From Savitreella phatthalungensis (Eukaryota): a DNA stretch of 64,000 nt. This document shows, piece after piece, positions 39,871 to 45,564 of this stretch (the first letter of the stretch is position 1; each line of letters opens with the position of its first letter). A model generated the notes under the pieces. That model was not told the DNA's origin. It saw nothing but the letters and a program-made list of their open reading frames with translations, and did not search any database. The stretch spans positions 434,001-498,000 of the forward strand of contig AP039694.1 of the NCBI GenBank assembly GCA_051599415.1, given 5' to 3'. Position numbers and translations under genes: made by a program.

Positions 39871-42096
39871 ATGACATTTGTACGAGCACTGTATGCATAC
39901 CAAGCTCCAGACGATTCGGGCTTAAACTTCGAGCGCGGCGATGTTATTCAAGTCCTCAACGTCCTTCCATCCGGTTGGTGGGATGGCTACCTGAACGGCA
40001 AGCGAGGATGGTTTCCGAGCAATTTTGTCGAACCTGAGGAGCGACGCAAGCGGCAGCACAGACCGCCACCCCTCGATCTATCTGCTGCACAAGTCGCCTT
40101 GCACAACGGTACAGGACCCAACCTTATCAATAACACGATCCCTTCACCGCACATCTCCGTCGCGCGTGCATGGGTATCGCAGCTCCGTGGAGCTGTTGGC
40201 AAGCTCCAGCTCGGTGATTTACAGCAGGTCGAGATCATTAGAGGCATCATCGCTCAGATCTCTCATGGCACCGGTGGCCTGCCTCGCGAAATCATGAGCG
40301 CTCTCTCGAAGTTGACCCTGGCCGGTCCAGAGGAGATAGTGCGCGAGGCAGAGATTCTCGTGACATCTACAGATCGCTACCTCGAAACTGTCGACCATGT
40401 CGAGCCCGCCAGACCGGTTATGCTTGCGCAGAAGCAGAGCGGCGGTGCATGGCGCACCACTGGTTCTCAGCCAATCTCTGAAGAAGCAGTCATGCAACTA
40501 GAGTCTCTTTCGCGCCTCGTTAGAAGTGAGATTCAATCGACGCGGATAAAGGCAAGATCAGAACATCCCTCGGTCGTTGTCAGAGACGTCCTTGAGCTGC
40601 TTACCCCAGTCAAAGAGTTCTTGAAAGCTTGTGAGCAACTCGATCTTTCCGCACTCGATGCCATACCAGCTGCAGGACTTACGCAATCTCCGACGGTGCT
40701 CGACTTTGTCAAAACGAAGCAAGCACTCTACGATACGGTCGCGGACGTGGTGGTTGAGACGCAGAATCTGACCGCACCACATGTCGACAGATTTGAAGCT
40801 GGCTATATCGTGAGCGGCGCATTGAGTGACCTCGAGCACAGCATGCAGAGCATTCTGATGAATGCAGAGTTCCTTGTACAGGAGTTGAATGTCAAATACA
40901 CGCCCGCACGGCGTGACCCAGAACCACCGGCGACCGGCGACGTCCTCCTCGACACGAAAGGCAACATCCGCGCCGGCACGCTGTCGGCACTCGTTGACCG
41001 TCTCGTGCGCGAGGACGCTCCGGCTGATCCAAACTATCTCAGCACATTCTTGCTGACGTACAAGCTATTCACAAATGGCCCAGAGCTCGGAGGACATTTG
41101 CTTCGCCGCTACGTAGATGGCAACAGACGAACGGTTGAGGTGTTGAGAACCTGGCTTGAGCAGTACTTTGTTGAGCCTCCTAACACACCAGAGACTCGTC
41201 AGCTGCTGAACGATATTCGTGGGCTGGGCGAAGCCGTTCTTGCAGAACCCGTCAGTGATCGGATACAAGGCCGCCCTCTGCGGACGCTAGCTGCTGAGCC
41301 GACGTCAGTTGGGGCACCACAGCCTATCTTGCCGCGCAGTCTTCGTAAGGTGAAATTACTCGAAGTCGACCCGCTCGAGATTGCGCGTCAATTGACCATC
41401 CTGGAAAGCAGCCTGTATGCGAAAATCCAGCCGATGGAATGCCTGGAGAAGGTCTGGACAGGCAACATCAAGGACTTGATTCGACAAACGAACGAGATCA
41501 CGGCTTGGGTGGCAGAGGCAATCCTCTACCAACTGGATCCGAAGAAGCGAGTTGCGCTGATCCGCCACTTCATCCACGTCGCCATCCACTGTCGCAGCCT
41601 GAAAAACTTCTCGTCTCTTGTGGCAATCATCTCGGGCCTCAACAGTGCCCCGATCTACCGCCTGCGACGAACATGGGAGCTGCTCAATGCTCGCAGTTAT
41701 CAACAACTCGACGACATGAACACGCTGATGAACTCGAGTAAAAACTTCCTTAATTACAGGGACGCCCTCCACCAGGTTCAACCACCCTGTCTACCTTTCC
41801 TCGGCGTCTATCTGACCGATCTGACGTTCATCGCCGACGGAAACCCTGACCTACTCCGGAACATGATCAACGTGTCGAAGCACGCGAAGACGGCAGAGGT
41901 GATCAGGGACATCCTCGCTTACCAGAGCATGCCATACGCCTTGCAGGAAGTGCCTGAGATCCAGCGGTACATCCGATCGTGTCTAGCGGTGACGAGAGAC
42001 ATCACCCACCTGTACGCCATCTCGCTTGAGCGTGAGCCTCGTGAGCGCGAGGACGAGAAAATCGCTCGCCTTCTCCAGGAATCCGGATTCCTATAG
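39871..42096 (+). CDS. Ras guanine-nucleotide exchange factor (Cdc25/Ste6-like): SH3, REM and CDC25 domains
   Basis: SH3 FVRALYAY..LNFERGDVI..GWWDG..RGWFPSNFV; AGTLSALV; FLLTY; EIARQLT; NFSSLVAIISGL; PPCLPFLGVYLTDL. Confidence 0.93.
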   Translation: MTFVRALYAYQAPDDSGLNFERGDVIQVLNVLPSGWWDGYLNGKRGWFPSNFVEPEERRKRQHRPPPLDLSAAQVALHNGTGPNLINNTIPSPHISVARAWVSQLRGAVGKLQLGDLQQVEIIRGIIAQISHGTGGLPREIMSALSKLTLAGPEEIVREAEILVTSTDRYLETVDHVEPARPVMLAQKQSGGAWRTTGSQPISEEAVMQLESLSRLVRSEIQSTRIKARSEHPSVVVRDVLELLTPVKEFLKACEQLDLSALDAIPAAGLTQSPTVLDFVKTKQALYDTVADVVVETQNLTAPHVDRFEAGYIVSGALSDLEHSMQSILMNAEFLVQELNVKYTPARRDPEPPATGDVLLDTKGNIRAGTLSALVDRLVREDAPADPNYLSTFLLTYKLFTNGPELGGHLLRRYVDGNRRTVEVLRTWLEQYFVEPPNTPETRQLLNDIRGLGEAVLAEPVSDRIQGRPLRTLAAEPTSVGAPQPILPRSLRKVKLLEVDPLEIARQLTILESSLYAKIQPMECLEKVWTGNIKDLIRQTNEITAWVAEAILYQLDPKKRVALIRHFIHVAIHCRSLKNFSSLVAIISGLNSAPIYRLRRTWELLNARSYQQLDDMNTLMNSSKNFLNYRDALHQVQPPCLPFLGVYLTDLTFIADGNPDLLRNMINVSKHAKTAEVIRDILAYQSMPYALQEVPEIQRYIRSCLAVTRDITHLYAISLEREPREREDEKIARLLQESGFL

Positions 42097-42130: not shown

Positions 42131-42412
42131 CTATACACCCACTCCAGCTCCCGCACCAGACAAAGCCATCGTGATTTCCGCAGAACCGCGTACAAGTCTT
42201 CCTAGCTCGACTATCTTGCCTGTCCTGTAGACCAAGTTGATTCCAGCGGCTGGTGGTGTTGATCCACGTGGCACCTTGACCTGCGCAACCACCTTGAACC
42301 GCTGACCGTCCCTGCCAGCACGCTGGCCGATCGTCATCGTCGCTGAAGGAAATGTCATCACTACTTTCCTAGCCTCACGAAGAAATCCCTCGACATCCGT
42401 AAACGTTCTCAT
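42131..42412 (-). CDS. Signal recognition particle Alu-domain subunit, SRP9/SRP21-like
   Basis: Small basic protein; F..VEGFLREAR..FP N-terminus and LVYRTGKIVELGRLV, resembling the SRP9/21 LKYRT..K..E.GRL motif. Confidence 0.6.
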   Translation of the reverse strand: MRTFTDVEGFLREARKVVMTFPSATMTIGQRAGRDGQRFKVVAQVKVPRGSTPPAAGINLVYRTGKIVELGRLVRGSAEITMALSGAGAGVGV

Positions 42413-42698
42413 CGCGCTCCCACGATCACCCGATCTGGAGTTGAAGGTTGTGCGGTGAGGATGTTTGTGTGATGTGTAGCGGACGCTCACAAGTGATTTT
42501 TGTGTAGAAACTAGCCGATTAGATATGCGCATCCATCGCACGAACAGGGTCGAGGAGATGTATAGAATAGATTTTATAAAAAAGATTATAGAAGAGAAAA
42601 ACGGGAGAAAAAGGGAGACGATCTACGGGGTATGATTAGACCAGATACACCTATATCGATCTGAGATCCGTCAATCGTGGTACTCCTTGGGGGGTTGT

Positions 42699-43253
42699 TT
42701 AGAACGTGGAGCCTTGTCTGGGTCGGGTGTTTGACATTGCGCCGCTGCCCCAGAGTTGCCTGTAGGAGGTGATGAGTCTCTGTACGGTTCTTGACATTGT
42801 CTGATCTGCGACTTGATGTGCTGAGAGTGTTGACATCATGTTGTTGAAGCCGTCGATTTCCTCGGGCGCAGAGTCGGCAGACAAGGCCTTGAAGCCCATC
42901 GTCCATTCGCCGAAATCACGCTTGGCAATCTCGCGCCGGAGAAGGCGGAGGACACCACGGTGGCGGACGTCAAGTGAGATCCGCTCGTACAACGCGTCCA
43001 CCTGGTGTGCAGGACCCTCTAGAAACTGGATGAAGTTTCCATCGTGGTAGAGCAGGAGGCCTGTGACGTTGCGTTTTATGTTGTTGCGGCGGGAAGCCGC
43101 CAGGATAGAGACAAGCTCCGAGTCTTCCAACAGGTGTTCTGCCGATGACAGGTACACGAGTTGGTAGAGCTTCTCCCCGTTCAGATTTGAGTCGTTGTCC
43201 GTCGGGGCGATGGCATTTTCAGCTGCCGCGTGATTGACTGCTTCTGAGGTCAT
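42699..43253 (-). CDS. Stand-alone BLUF-domain (flavin blue-light sensor) protein
   Basis: LYQLVYLS (Tyr), ILAASRRNN, VTGLLLY, FIQFLEG (Gln), LYERISLDVRH, RDFGEWTMGF (Trp/Met). Intronless. Confidence 0.93.
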   Translation of the reverse strand: MTSEAVNHAAAENAIAPTDNDSNLNGEKLYQLVYLSSAEHLLEDSELVSILAASRRNNIKRNVTGLLLYHDGNFIQFLEGPAHQVDALYERISLDVRHRGVLRLLRREIAKRDFGEWTMGFKALSADSAPEEIDGFNNMMSTLSAHQVADQTMSRTVQRLITSYRQLWGSGAMSNTRPRQGSTF

Positions 43254-43610
43254 GATGCAAATGCTGTGAAGTGATGCGGTGGACGTACGCCCGAGCTGAT
43301 ATACACGCGATAGATATGTGACTTGCTTTGAGACAGGTCTACTGATTAGATCTGAGGCGCTCCCGTGGTTATCCCAAACGTGCGTCAGAACTCAAGGCAG
43401 ACTACGCGCGACCGCTGGCTGTTGCCCTTTAATTACCAAACTGCAAGGGAAGAGCGCGATGTTGCGTAGCGTGATGCAATGTAATGCGGCGTGACCTTGT
43501 GACTCTGGGAATGAACAGGAGTGTACGAGCAACGTTCGCGAGGACGATGCGATGTATGCGTCACTAGGAATGCGAGAGCAGTAATGACGATTCTTCCTGC
43601 AGAAAGTGTG

Positions 43611-44381
43611 TCAATGCAATGTGGTAAGCGCAATAGAGTGAGTCTCGATGTCGACGCTGAAGAGAGTGATGCTGGAAAGGTTAAAGCCTCGTGGAAACTC
43701 GGATACTAGCCTGTACTGTACAATTGTGCTGTATGTTGCAATCAGTTGACCGGGGTGGGAGGTTTGGTTCGTACGTCAGGTCGATCCCGTCTGCAGTGAA
43801 TTGAGTCGCTCGTGCGATGGAACCACTAAGAATCGATCGCAGAAGGCTCGTCGGCACTCCTTTAATTTCCTGAGGGCTGTAGACTGAATCTAAGTGCTCA
43901 TTCCTTACTGCGCTGATTGATTGCTCATGCTGTTGGAAGGCCTGTGAGCTATCTGCACAGGTTATTTTAACAGACGTCACCTGGCGCTGACTGGATTCTG
44001 ATTGTTGGTTGCCTGCGATGGAGAAACCGATGTGGTGTTGATGGTTGGACTGAACAAGGTTTAACCTGGTACAGTACTCAATCAGAGTCTGTGATGAGCA
44101 GGCAGGGACTGGTGAATTATGAACACAAAAGTGTGATGGAAGCAATTGTGTGAATTCGACCTGCAGTCCTACAACGCTGGGAGGGTGAATGATAATTATT
44201 CTAGGCCGATTGGTAGCAAGTACCACTGGCTCGGGGCTTGAATATTTAGAAACTTGACTAGGCTTCACTACATTGACCGTCTGCCTTACATGTGCTAAAT
44301 TGGGCTGGCGATTTGACTAGCGATGCCACTCAAAATTAGTCAAATTCTGTTGGATGGGCTGAGCAGAGTCAGACTATCCAT
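43611..44381 (-). CDS. Candidate multi-intron orphan gene
   Basis: Open frame 44268-43775 lacking an ATG. Phase-consistent introns at 43980-43930 and 43774-43729 lead to a 39-codon last exon (TIVQYRLVSEFPRGF..LTTLH*). CACGTGAC and TATAA lie upstream of ATG 44381. 5' exons uncertain. Confidence 0.4.
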
Positions 44382-45564
44382 TGATCAGAAAAATATACTG
44401 GAGCTGAACGACGTTATAAAAAGGTCTGTGACGTCACGTGACCTGAAGCTTCTTAAGCGACGCAGGTCAAATCAGACCTAGCTCGGCTTGGTCTTCGGAC
44501 TCATTTGGGCCCTGGTACCCGGGCAGATCAATCATACACCGCCACACCTCAGCCACGAACCGCGAATATATGCGACTTCAACATATCCGAATGAGTGAGA
44601 CTACATGGTCTACAGACCAAAGTAAGGCCGGACATCCTGACTAAAAAATCTCAAGCTACTGTTCGAGCCTCTGTCAGTGGTCTTTTCGGTGTTCGTCCGC
44701 AGACCAGACATTGCCACTGTTCCCTTTGTGAGGCCAATTCTCCGGGTGTCTGGTGGACCGACGTTGCGCACGCTGGCTGATTCACGGTGACAGTCCACCT
44801 CGTCATCATGAAATCTCGCGTGATACCGCTTCGACTCATCCCTGATCCGCGTGGCAGGCTCAAGTATCGTGCAATGTTTGACCTGCTCTTGTGACTTTCG
44901 TGTTCAGCCAATCGGAGATTTTTTACTTGTCTAAGCCAATGGGAGTCGTTCCCGAGATCTAAAATCCGTTTTATCTGACGTCGTGGTGCGGGATTCGACG
45001 ACGGTCTGTAGAATCGGCAGCTTCCTAAAACGGGAATTCCGATGTCGGCAAAAATCCAGAAATCTGACCCCACCTCGATGGAAATTTTTTTTCGCACCTT
45101 TTCGATCGATCGGCCATGTGAAGGAAAGTTATTCACAGTTTCCAGCTAGGTAGGTGGGTGCAAGGGGGTGTGACCAGGGAGCACGAGATTTCAGGAATAG
45201 AATTTGTATCTGATGGAGATGAAAAATTGAACGGCCCTTTTCTAGGCGTCGGCCAAAAATCGGTGCTCTCGACTTTTCTCACATAGCACGGTGTCGGCTC
45301 AACGGCAGGTGCGCGGCGCAGCAGCCGTGACCCCAGATCATGGCACGCATCGGTCGCAATGATCAGTATACTCGGCCTCAAATGAGTGATAAGTGATAAT
45401 ATTCAGTTTTTATACGGGCTCGCTAGATCGCGAAGGGGCCGTGTCATCCATCTTCTTATTTTTCCCTCGGCAGACACAGGGCTTCTGCTGCGCTGCTGTA
45501 GCTCTCTAAATGTGGAGCAGGTGATTGTTTCTTCAGGAGAATGTCTCTCTTTTGACAACCTCCA

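What the first reader, a model, noticed from the sequence alone, without database searches (positions are those of the whole stretch)
42699..43253. Intronless, bacterial-type stand-alone BLUF photoreceptor in an ascomycete
Seen: a complete BLUF domain with the Tyr, Asn-Asn, Gln, Trp and Met residues of the photocycle, a short helical cap and no effector domain, embedded among clearly fungal genes (Ras-GEF, SRP9/21-like, Zn2Cys6 TF). Known: BLUF proteins are mainly bacterial. Standard fungal photoreceptors are LOV (WC-1/VVD), cryptochrome, phytochrome and opsin, and fungal BLUF proteins are sporadic (e.g. smut fungi). Short BLUF proteins such as PixD and BlrB signal through partner proteins. 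Inference: horizontally acquired light sensor with an unknown fungal partner.
Basis: partly seen in the sequence, partly recalled or inferred. Interest (0 to 1): 0.72.

Follow-up and report, generated by a model that had tools for sequence, protein, structure and literature searches.

The report
Old fungal BLUF blue-light sensor gene
This early-branching ascomycete yeast carries an intact, long-resident gene for a small bacterial-type blue-light sensor (BLUF), a protein type I found described in fungi only for basidiomycetes, and it sits in a genome where I could not find the usual fungal blue-light receptor White Collar-1, so it may be part of a different way for a fungus to sense light.

Summary
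42699-43253(-) is an intact 184-aa, single-copy, effector-less BLUF gene with the canonical Tyr34/Asn58/Gln76/Trp117/Met119. It lies mid-contig among Taphrinales-type fungal genes.

It is not a recent bacterial import. Its codon usage is native. It belongs to a clade of unnamed proteins 49-62% identical, most showing 3' intron read-through. One relative shares an exact contig length (73,187) with a Taphrina-like ortholog of the neighbouring Ras-GEF. All 54 placements of the protein alone outside that clade are rejected.

Named fungal BLUFs (Ustilago Blf1, other smuts, Phaffia) are close, but one versus two fungal acquisitions, and the donor, are unresolved. I found no paper on an ascomycete BLUF.

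Five queries found no LOV/White Collar-1 in this genome, and a published table scores WC-1 absent in Taphrina deformans. The gene may therefore act in White Collar-independent light sensing.

Against this: the one fungal BLUF tested in vitro showed no canonical flavin spectrum, and a Phaffia BLUF knockout left carotenoids unchanged. The partner is unknown and no RNA data were available.

Verdict: new member of a known kind, in an interesting genomic context.

The parts
42699..43253 (-). Short (group II) BLUF gene, 184 aa (P0001), single copy in the genome
   Evidence: the only BLUF match in G000
43173..43253 (-). N-terminal extension, residues 1-27, unconserved and probably disordered
   Evidence: no conservation in alignment A1; no secondary structure, pLDDT 56-61 over residues 1-20
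42894..43169 (-). BLUF core, residues 29-120, with Y34, S36, N57, N58, Q76, D95, R97, H98, W117, M119
   Evidence: Pfam PF04940 E 1.3e-29; residue match to OaPAC and BlrB; conservation table; fold matches
42738..42866 (-). C-terminal helical cap, residues about 130-172; second helix 155-172 carries the clade motif S-x-x-V-Q-R-L-I-x-S-Y-R
   Evidence: AlphaFold2 helices 137-143 (low confidence) and 155-172; S154, V157, Q158, R159, L160, I161, S163 and R165 are invariant in 13 of 13 rows of A1
42755..42756 (-). Position after Q166 where most relatives appear to carry a phase-0 intron; absent here
   Evidence: 14 of 22 clade proteins turn to Val at this point; in 9 of 12 distinct clusters the next residue is S/C/R/G, as GTNNGT donors give; inferred from protein only
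42131..42412 (-). Downstream neighbour, SRP9/21-like small ORF (93 aa from the second Met; 133 aa from 42532)
   Evidence: Pfam SRP9-21 E 0.012, below cut-off; weak
39871..42096 (+). SH3-RasGEF (Cdc25-type) neighbour, used as lineage and synteny marker
   Evidence: its Taphrina-like ortholog P0290 has the same longest-contig length (73,187) as BLUF homolog P0011
45565..46788 (-). Upstream neighbour, Zn2Cys6 transcription factor, 2.3 kb away; no evidence of a functional link
   Evidence: Pfam Zn_clus 22 bits, cut-off 21

Best explanation
The gene is a genuine, long-resident Taphrinales gene for a stand-alone (group II) BLUF protein of ultimately bacterial origin, acquired before this lineage split from Taphrina-like relatives.

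Shown: intact gene, complete BLUF fold and pocket residues, conserved two-helix cap, no effector, native codon usage, membership of a eukaryote-type clade.

Inferred from the family: it binds a flavin non-covalently. Blue light drives electron and proton transfer from Tyr34, rearranges the Tyr34-Gln76-flavin hydrogen bonds (about 10 nm reversible red shift), and shifts beta5 (Trp117/Met119) and the cap helix 155-172.

Inferred, no partner known: the cap change alters oligomer state or binding to a separate fungal protein, as with PixD-PixE. This would give an auxiliary blue-light input beside four cryptochrome/photolyase proteins, two opsins and one phytochrome, in a genome where White Collar-1 was not found.
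For: BLUF domain and key residues. Fold: Foldseek top hits are PixD Tll0078 and Slr1694 and BlrB, E about 1e-11; VIA-align Z 14-16 to BlrP1, OaPAC, bPAC, PixD and AppA, with the best non-BLUF row at Z 10.9. N58, Q76, W117 and M119 are invariant in 16 of 16 clade-A rows, and Y34 in 15 of 16, the other row being truncated, which points to selection on the photochemical residues. GC 0.560 against 0.564 +/- 0.020, GC3 0.679 against 0.644 +/- 0.062, codon fit z +0.9 against 26 other window ORFs. The gene lies mid-contig. 14 unnamed proteins are 49-62% identical (E 1e-39 or better) before a drop to E 1.7e-21. The best named prokaryotic genome hit is 49% over 116 aa. Clade A support is SH-aLRT 94.3 / UFBoot 89. 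54 of 54 placements of the protein alone outside clade A are rejected (AU p 0.032 or less). Intron read-through in relatives. Equal contig length for BLUF P0011 and Taphrina-like Ras-GEF P0290. Other photoreceptor families in the genome. T. deformans is described as carotenoid-rich and exposed to high light at the plant surface (PMC3648899).
Against: Recombinant Ustilago (Mycosarcoma) maydis BLUF, which keeps Tyr/Gln/Met, gave no 440-450 nm flavin peak and an emission at 450-470 nm (bioRxiv 10.64898/2026.08.14.744829). The text reports no flavin extraction or reconstitution. A BLUF disruption in Xanthophyllomyces (Phaffia) did not notably change carotenoids (PMC13123865). In U. maydis the weak residual blue-light response of a wco1 mutant leaves only a minor role for other receptors (PMC4831468). 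No host name is attached to any clade-A relative; their being Taphrinales rests on one contig-length coincidence. Introns in relatives are inferred from protein tails only. No BLUF named as T. deformans, Protomyces or Saitoella appeared among the rows listed. The first cap helix is poorly predicted (pLDDT 53-69).
Confidence: 0.6

Rival explanations
1. The protein keeps the BLUF fold but in fungi is not a canonical photoswitch. It binds flavin weakly or in a reduced state, or binds another chromophore, and works as a redox or flavin-status sensor or a flavin buffer.
For: Non-canonical spectra of the U. maydis BLUF. No carotenoid phenotype of a Phaffia BLUF disruption. blf1 is expressed but not light-induced in U. 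maydis. The ciliary BLUF protein DYBLUP/MOT7 binds flavins only weakly (PMC7909887).
Against: All photocycle residues are near-invariant across clade A and the basidiomycete BLUFs, which is hard to explain without photochemistry. The U. maydis spectra could come from apo or impure protein (my inference; figures and supplement not seen). Phaffia has four BLUF paralogs and a White Collar complex, so one knockout may be masked.
Confidence: 0.25
2. Origin, option 1: all fungal short BLUFs share one entry into fungi. It was either inherited from a Dikarya ancestor and lost in most lineages, or passed fungus-to-fungus among leaf-surface yeasts.
For: With 175 sequences FastTree joins clade A and the basidiomycete BLUFs in one 31-member clade (SH-like 0.856; names). 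A tree constrained to that clade is not rejected (AU p 0.247). S154 is shared by 16 of 16 clade-A rows and 11 of 17 basidiomycete rows but few bacterial rows.
Against: In the 65-sequence ML tree the joint clade has only 74.7/31 support and contains 6 bacterial-type sequences; in the 439-sequence tree it also contains 6. Position 70 is His in all 16 clade-A rows but Arg/Lys in 16 of 17 basidiomycete rows. Vertical inheritance needs many losses, for example in Fusarium (PMC10056346).
Confidence: 0.5
3. Origin, option 2: clade A is a separate, ancient bacterium-to-Taphrinales transfer, independent of the smut and Phaffia BLUFs.
For: Grafting the whole of clade A beside bacterial groups is not rejected in 6 of 10 placements, best beside a Bacteroidota group (AU p 0.66). 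A fast ML tree nested that group inside clade A.
Against: No bacterial sister has firm support. 0 of the 160 metagenome and prokaryote genome loci fetched carry the clade's cap motif. 142 columns cannot resolve the deep branches.
Confidence: 0.45
4. The gene is a recent, lineage-specific bacterial transfer or an assembly contaminant.
For: It is intronless and single-domain, and the nearest ESM Atlas clusters are mostly bacterial (the tool says this is no sign of transfer).
Against: Native GC and codon usage. It sits 167 bp from the next fungal ORF, mid-contig. Close relatives at 49-62% show intron signatures. All 54 bacterial or basidiomycete placements of the protein alone are rejected.
Confidence: 0.03
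5. The gene descends vertically from the eukaryotic ciliary BLUF family DYBLUP/TEX47, retained after loss of flagella.
For: DYBLUP occurs in animals, Chlamydomonas and a chytrid (PMC7909887). Two fungal-type relatives give weak TEX47 scores (P0030 E 7e-4, P0105 E 8e-6).
Against: P0001 has no TEX47 hit at E 0.001 and is 40-50% identical to canonical bacterial BLUFs. No DYBLUP sequence was included in my trees, so this is not formally tested.
Confidence: 0.02

Closest known systems
Ustilago (Mycosarcoma) maydis Blf1 / UMAG_00188 (XP_011386128.1) and the BLUFs of other Ustilaginomycotina (Moesziomyces, Kalmanozyma, Pseudozyma, Thecaphora, Ceraceosorus, Sympodiomycopsis, Parajaminaea)
   Same: Effector-less fungal BLUF with the same core residues and a C-terminal cap helix; 55% identical over the 100-aa core; only BLUF found by Pfam in Blf1; function unknown.
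   Different: Basidiomycete hosts; Blf1 has a 115-aa N-terminal extension and a longer cap linker (294 aa); a separate clade; U. maydis keeps White Collar-1, whereas none was found in this genome.
Phaffia rhodozyma (Xanthophyllomyces dendrorhous) BLUF proteins (CDZ97636.1, CED85203.1 and two more)
   Same: Short, effector-less fungal BLUFs of 166-232 aa in a carotenoid-producing yeast.
   Different: Four paralogs, 30-41% identical to P0001; the host has a White Collar complex; a BLUF disruption gave no notable carotenoid change.
Bacterial group II (short) BLUF photoreceptors: PixD (Slr1694, Tll0078), BlrB, BlsA
   Same: BLUF core plus helical cap and no effector; top Foldseek matches; gap-free core alignment to BlrB.
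   Different: 25-36% identity in the structural alignments; their partners and outputs are bacterial (PixE etc., recalled); no such partner is known here; the cap sequence is clade-specific.
White Collar-1 (LOV) system of fungi
   Same: Flavin-based blue-light input in fungi.
   Different: Different fold and photochemistry (Cys adduct, recalled); WC-1 acts with WC-2 as a light-regulated transcription factor; not found in this genome.

Membership tests
BLUF domain (PF04940) | Full-length match above the curated cut-off | tested here: met
   102.5 bits against 25, model 1-92/92
BLUF domain (PF04940) | [quoted passage not shown] | tested here: met
   AlphaFold2 element order; Foldseek and VIA-align matches to BLUF structures, Z up to 16.3; a predicted model, not a solved structure
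BLUF domain (PF04940) | Conserved Tyr, Gln, Met (and semi-conserved Trp, Asn) of the flavin pocket | tested here: met
   Y34/N58/Q76/W117/M119 = OaPAC Y6/N30/Q48/W90/M92; the same spacing as AppA Y21/Q63/W104/M106 given in PMC10572898
BLUF photoreceptor | Non-covalent binding of oxidised flavin | not testable with these tools
   Needs purified protein; the U. maydis homolog did not show the canonical spectrum
BLUF photoreceptor | Reversible ~10 nm red shift on illumination | not testable with these tools
   Needs spectroscopy
Group II (short) BLUF proteins | About 200 aa or less, no effector domain, C-terminal helical cap | tested here: met
   184 aa, one Pfam family, closed frame upstream, cap helix; 9 of 9 clade-A relatives scanned had BLUF as the only family above cut-off. 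A dedicated search for longer fused forms was not run; the length-free search shows one representative per 50% cluster.
Group II (short) BLUF proteins | Light-dependent binding to a separate partner or change of oligomer | not tested
   No candidate partner had a basis; no complex prediction was run
Known fungal (basidiomycete) BLUF clade of Blf1 | Monophyly with Ustilaginomycotina and Phaffia BLUFs to the exclusion of bacteria | tested here: inconclusive
   Joined in FastTree, weak and mixed with bacteria in ML; neither one nor two origins is rejected
Recent horizontal acquisition | Foreign composition and a bacterial sister group for this gene alone | tested here: not met
   Native GC, GC3 and codon fit; 54 of 54 placements rejected
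DYBLUP/TEX47 | TEX47 (PF24787) match and grouping with ciliary BLUFs | tested here: inconclusive
   No TEX47 hit for P0001; not included in the trees

The most novel reading that the evidence does not exclude
Taphrinales leaf-surface yeasts lost White Collar-1, the central fungal blue-light receptor, and kept an anciently acquired bacterial short BLUF that now acts, through an undescribed fungal partner, as a main blue-light input. This would be a White Collar-independent fungal light pathway in which a bacterial sensor was wired into eukaryotic signalling.
Probability: 0.2. Interest if true: 0.78.

Novelty: new member of a known kind. Interest (0 to 1): 0.5.

Why it matters
The papers I read place fungal BLUF proteins only in smuts and their relatives and in Phaffia, and their function is open. 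This gene extends the family to the Taphrinomycotina branch of Ascomycota as an old, conserved gene. The host lineage also offers a cleaner test than U. maydis or Phaffia: it has one short BLUF and apparently no White Collar-1 to mask a knockout. If the protein photocycles and its deletion removes blue-light responses, that would show a function for a fungal BLUF, which I did not find reported, and a White Collar-independent light pathway. A compact 184-aa eukaryote-adapted BLUF with a native partner would also be of optogenetic use.

Tried and rejected
This is no evidence either way.

DNA context of relatives: the metagenome scan returned 80 loci and the prokaryote genome scan 80 loci. None exceeded 52% identity on its best segment and none carried the clade's cap motif. 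The contigs of P0002-P0015 could not be read, so their introns and hosts are inferred.

Names: cluster look-ups gave no organism for 10 of 10 proteins asked, and names for 4 of 10 clusters, all basidiomycete. ESM Atlas returned BLUF clusters that were mostly bacterial; it is not informative for taxonomy.

Earlier scan findings: nothing by sequence, words or place; the 8 findings concern other BLUF fusions and do not bear on this.

Literature: one search matched mostly 'bluff' and was useless. Two reviews (10.3390/app9183924, PMC5425820) are not held.

White Collar-1 candidates rejected: the two hits of the strict motif pattern were one non-matching reading and one site antisense to an ABC-ATPase ORF. 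All 39 relaxed-pattern sites scored 4.2 bits or less against a LOV profile.

Donor: a Bacteroidota sister appeared in a fast tree but not in the full ML tree; no donor is claimed.

Neighbours as partners (Ras-GEF, Zn2Cys6 factor, SRP9/21-like): no evidence beyond adjacency; no complex was predicted.

A possible 5' UTR intron: one donor-like site at 43288 with no branch site nearby; rejected as chance.

Full report
1. The observation. The minus-strand ORF 42699-43253 is intact and encodes 184 aa. Pfam BLUF covers residues 29-120 over the whole model (E 1.3e-29, 102.5 bits, cut-off 25) and is the only family. It matches 22 distinct PDB sequences, all BLUF proteins. Y34, N58, Q76, W117 and M119 align with OaPAC Y6, N30, Q48, W90 and M92, and the core aligns without gaps to BlrB. 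AlphaFold2 with a 76-sequence alignment gives the BLUF fold at pLDDT 92-97 over residues 31-120, an unstructured N-terminus, a weak helix 137-143 and a confident helix 155-172 (19-sequence model). Foldseek ranks PixD and BlrB first. VIA-align gives Z 11-16 to 37 BLUF entries, above the first unrelated fold at 10.9. The frame is closed 47 codons upstream, so no effector is fused in frame. It is the only BLUF in the 12.7 Mb, 27-contig genome, on a 650,743-bp contig.

2. The host. The Ras-GEF next door has as best named hits Taphrina deformans (435 bits, 54%), Protomyces lactucae-debilis (387) and Saitoella complicata (381) among the 120 rows listed of 842. A 22-sequence FastTree places it in a clade with Protomyces and Taphrina (0.998), on its own branch. 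Spb1 from the window scores best against PDB 8ESQ (that this entry is fission yeast is recalled). The host is therefore a Taphrinales-type early-branching ascomycete. I did not try to name it further. The Zn2Cys6 neighbour is confirmed; the SRP9/21 call is weak.

3. Not a recent import. Against 26 other window ORFs the gene has GC 0.560 (mean 0.564, sd 0.020), GC3 0.679 (0.644, sd 0.062) and the fifth-best codon fit of 27. The homolog search found 23 proteins at E 1e-10 or better among 149 candidates. 14 of them (P0002-P0015) are 49-62% identical with E 1.2e-39 or better, and the next is at 1.7e-21. None carries an organism name. The best prokaryotic genome locus reaches 49% over 116 aa.

4. 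The relatives look eukaryotic. Of 22 clade proteins examined, 5 (including P0001) continue after the last conserved motif with Leu-Trp, 14 switch to Val and diverge, and 3 do neither. Counting one per cluster, 9 of 12 Val tails have Ser, Cys, Arg or Gly next. These are the dipeptides that GTNNGT splice donors give in phase 0 (donor consensus recalled). The binomial p is 7e-5 at a background of 0.20, not corrected for relatedness. P0008 also has a 12-residue insertion in the core that reads like an in-frame intron. This is what a prokaryotic gene caller produces on intron-bearing genes. It is inferred from proteins only. The tails of P0008 and P0038 resemble each other and may be real coding sequence.

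5. Probable synteny. BLUF homolog P0011 and Ras-GEF homolog P0290 are both listed from the same source with a longest contig of exactly 73,187 bp. P0290 nests among Taphrina-like sequences (0.924). The simplest reading is one contig, so BLUF and this Ras-GEF would be linked in a Taphrina-like genome as they are here. It is the only such length match I saw among the clade-A BLUFs and the 7 top Ras-GEF hits, and the contig could not be read.

6. Phylogeny. Named fungal BLUFs in the searches were all basidiomycete: U. maydis UMAG_00188, Ceraceosorus and Phaffia, and Moesziomyces, Kalmanozyma, Pseudozyma, Thecaphora, Ustilago loliicola, Sympodiomycopsis and Parajaminaea (120 of 162 listed). FastTree on 175 of 177 proteins joined them with the window's clade (0.856). 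On 439 sequences the joint clade (0.833) also held 6 bacterial-type sequences. IQ-TREE on 65 chosen sequences and 142 columns gave P0001+P0002+P0004 87.9/100 and clade A (16 sequences) 94.3/89. Clade A with the 17 basidiomycete-type sequences plus 6 bacterial-type ones had only 74.7/31. In AU tests on 67 trees, 54 of 54 placements of P0001 alone outside clade A were rejected (highest p 0.032). One fungal clade was not rejected (p 0.247). 6 of 10 placements of the whole clade beside bacterial groups were not rejected either (best p 0.66, Bacteroidota). Grafted trees were fixed topologies, and the constrained searches were shorter than the free one. So the acquisition is old, and its donor and the number of fungal entries are open.

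7. Light-sensing context. The genome has 4 cryptochrome/photolyase matches, 2 opsins and 1 phytochrome. No LOV domain was found. PAS_9 and PAS_3 searches hit 7 genes. By my reading these are 6 hybrid histidine kinases and 1 other PAS protein, and none has the LOV motif; the best score against a 14-sequence LOV profile was 11.4 bits. The strict motif pattern gave 2 sites and the relaxed one 39, none LOV-like. A bacterial LOV query found nothing. The YtvA family matched only outside its LOV part here while ringing in 8 of 14 control genomes. The 10 GATA matches fall in 7 ORFs, none at a PAS locus, so no PAS-GATA WC-2 was seen either. These are 'not found with these queries' results: no fungal WC-1 was available as a query, an intron could split the motif, and the assembly may be incomplete. 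Independent support: Supplementary Data 1 of PMC5309816 scores wc-1 as 0 in T. deformans and 1 in Saitoella, Neolecta and U. maydis. It scores wc-2 as 1 in T. deformans, but also in human.

8. How it most likely works. Shown: gene, fold, pocket residues and their conservation (N58, Q76, W117, M119 in 16 of 16 clade-A rows), a conserved cap helix and no effector. From established BLUF chemistry (PMC10572898, PMC12558739): flavin excitation, electron and proton transfer from Tyr, rearranged Gln hydrogen bonds and a reversible 10 nm red shift. Inferred: the change passes through Trp117/Met119 to the cap helix, whose S-x-x-V-Q-R-L-I-x-S-Y-R motif is invariant at 8 positions in 13 of 13 rows, and alters oligomer state or partner binding. 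I put a canonical photoreceptor role at about 0.6, a non-canonical flavin or redox role at about 0.25, and a role as the main stand-in for White Collar-1 at about 0.2.

9. Evidence against. The only in vitro study of a fungal BLUF that I found reports a broad 400-410 nm shoulder, no 440-450 nm peak and emission at 450-470 nm for the U. maydis protein, and leaves the chromophore unidentified (bioRxiv 10.64898/2026.08.14.744829). A BLUF disruption in X. dendrorhous caused no notable change in carotenoids (PMC13123865). In U. maydis blf1 is expressed but not light-induced, and most of the blue-light response needs wco1 (PMC4831468). No RNA holder was listed for this locus, which is no evidence either way.

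10. Comparison with what is known. BLUF in U. maydis and close relatives is described as very uncommon in eukaryotes. It is reported in Xanthophyllomyces (PMC11682019) and was not found in Fusarium (PMC10056346). A separate ciliary family, DYBLUP, occurs in animals, Chlamydomonas and a chytrid (PMC7909887). A whole-word search for BLUF with Taphrina returned 0 papers. None of the papers listed had a title or abstract start pointing to an ascomycete BLUF. The library lacks most subscription journals. Two BLUF reviews were not held, and the tree figure and supplement of the U. maydis preprint were not visible, so a prior mention cannot be excluded.

11. What I saw of each paper. Whole text without figures or supplement: 10.64898/2026.08.14.744829. 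Passages plus supplement rows: PMC5309816. Passages only: PMC4831468, PMC11682019, PMC10056346, PMC10572898, PMC12558739, PMC3648899, 10.1101/594028, PMC4810495, PMC5311114, PMC9200671, PMC13123865, PMC7909887. Reference-list hit only: PMC10219052.

12. Verdict. This is a new member of a known kind, a fungal short BLUF in an ascomycete order where I found none described. It is old rather than freshly acquired. Its main interest is the apparent absence of White Collar-1 in the same lineage, which makes the function of fungal BLUF proteins directly testable. Interest 0.5.

Noticed in passing
G000 whole genome: No LOV domain, WC-1 or PAS-GATA WC-2 was found, although 4 cryptochrome/photolyase genes, 2 opsins and 1 phytochrome are present; T. 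deformans is scored WC-1-negative in PMC5309816.
   Followed up: yes
window 39871-42096 (+): The Cdc25-type Ras-GEF is 741 aa against about 1,120-1,170 aa in its Taphrina-like orthologs, and lacks the WW and DUF7783 matches that P0290 has; its branch is long.
   Followed up: partly
G000 C8:239k, C6:58k, C19:55k, C9:285k, C2:70k, C5:633k (loci L162-L165, L194-L196): At least six PAS-bearing hybrid histidine kinases besides the phytochrome; two-component proteins are conceivable partners for a short BLUF, but nothing links them to it.
   Followed up: no
L166/L167 (G000:C2:496k, +): A protein with two PAS-like repeats and neither a kinase nor a GATA finger in the part read (open frame 669 aa); not a LOV protein.
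   Followed up: partly
window 42131-42532 (-): A small divergent SRP9/21-like ORF is squeezed between the BLUF gene and the Ras-GEF (35 bp from the Ras-GEF stop); its start codon is uncertain and its Pfam score is under the cut-off.
   Followed up: partly
proteins P0029, P0035, P0030, P0144: More divergent unnamed members of clade A from short-read assemblies; hosts unknown, possibly other fungal lineages.
   Followed up: no
proteins P0069, P0082, P0204, P0208: Phaffia rhodozyma has four BLUF paralogs, so a single knockout there may be masked; one has Phe at the position of the photoactive Tyr in my alignment.
   Followed up: no
window 43254-45564: A 2.3 kb stretch with only one ATG ORF of 60 aa or more lies upstream of the BLUF gene, long for this compact window; it may hold regulatory sequence.
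   Followed up: partly
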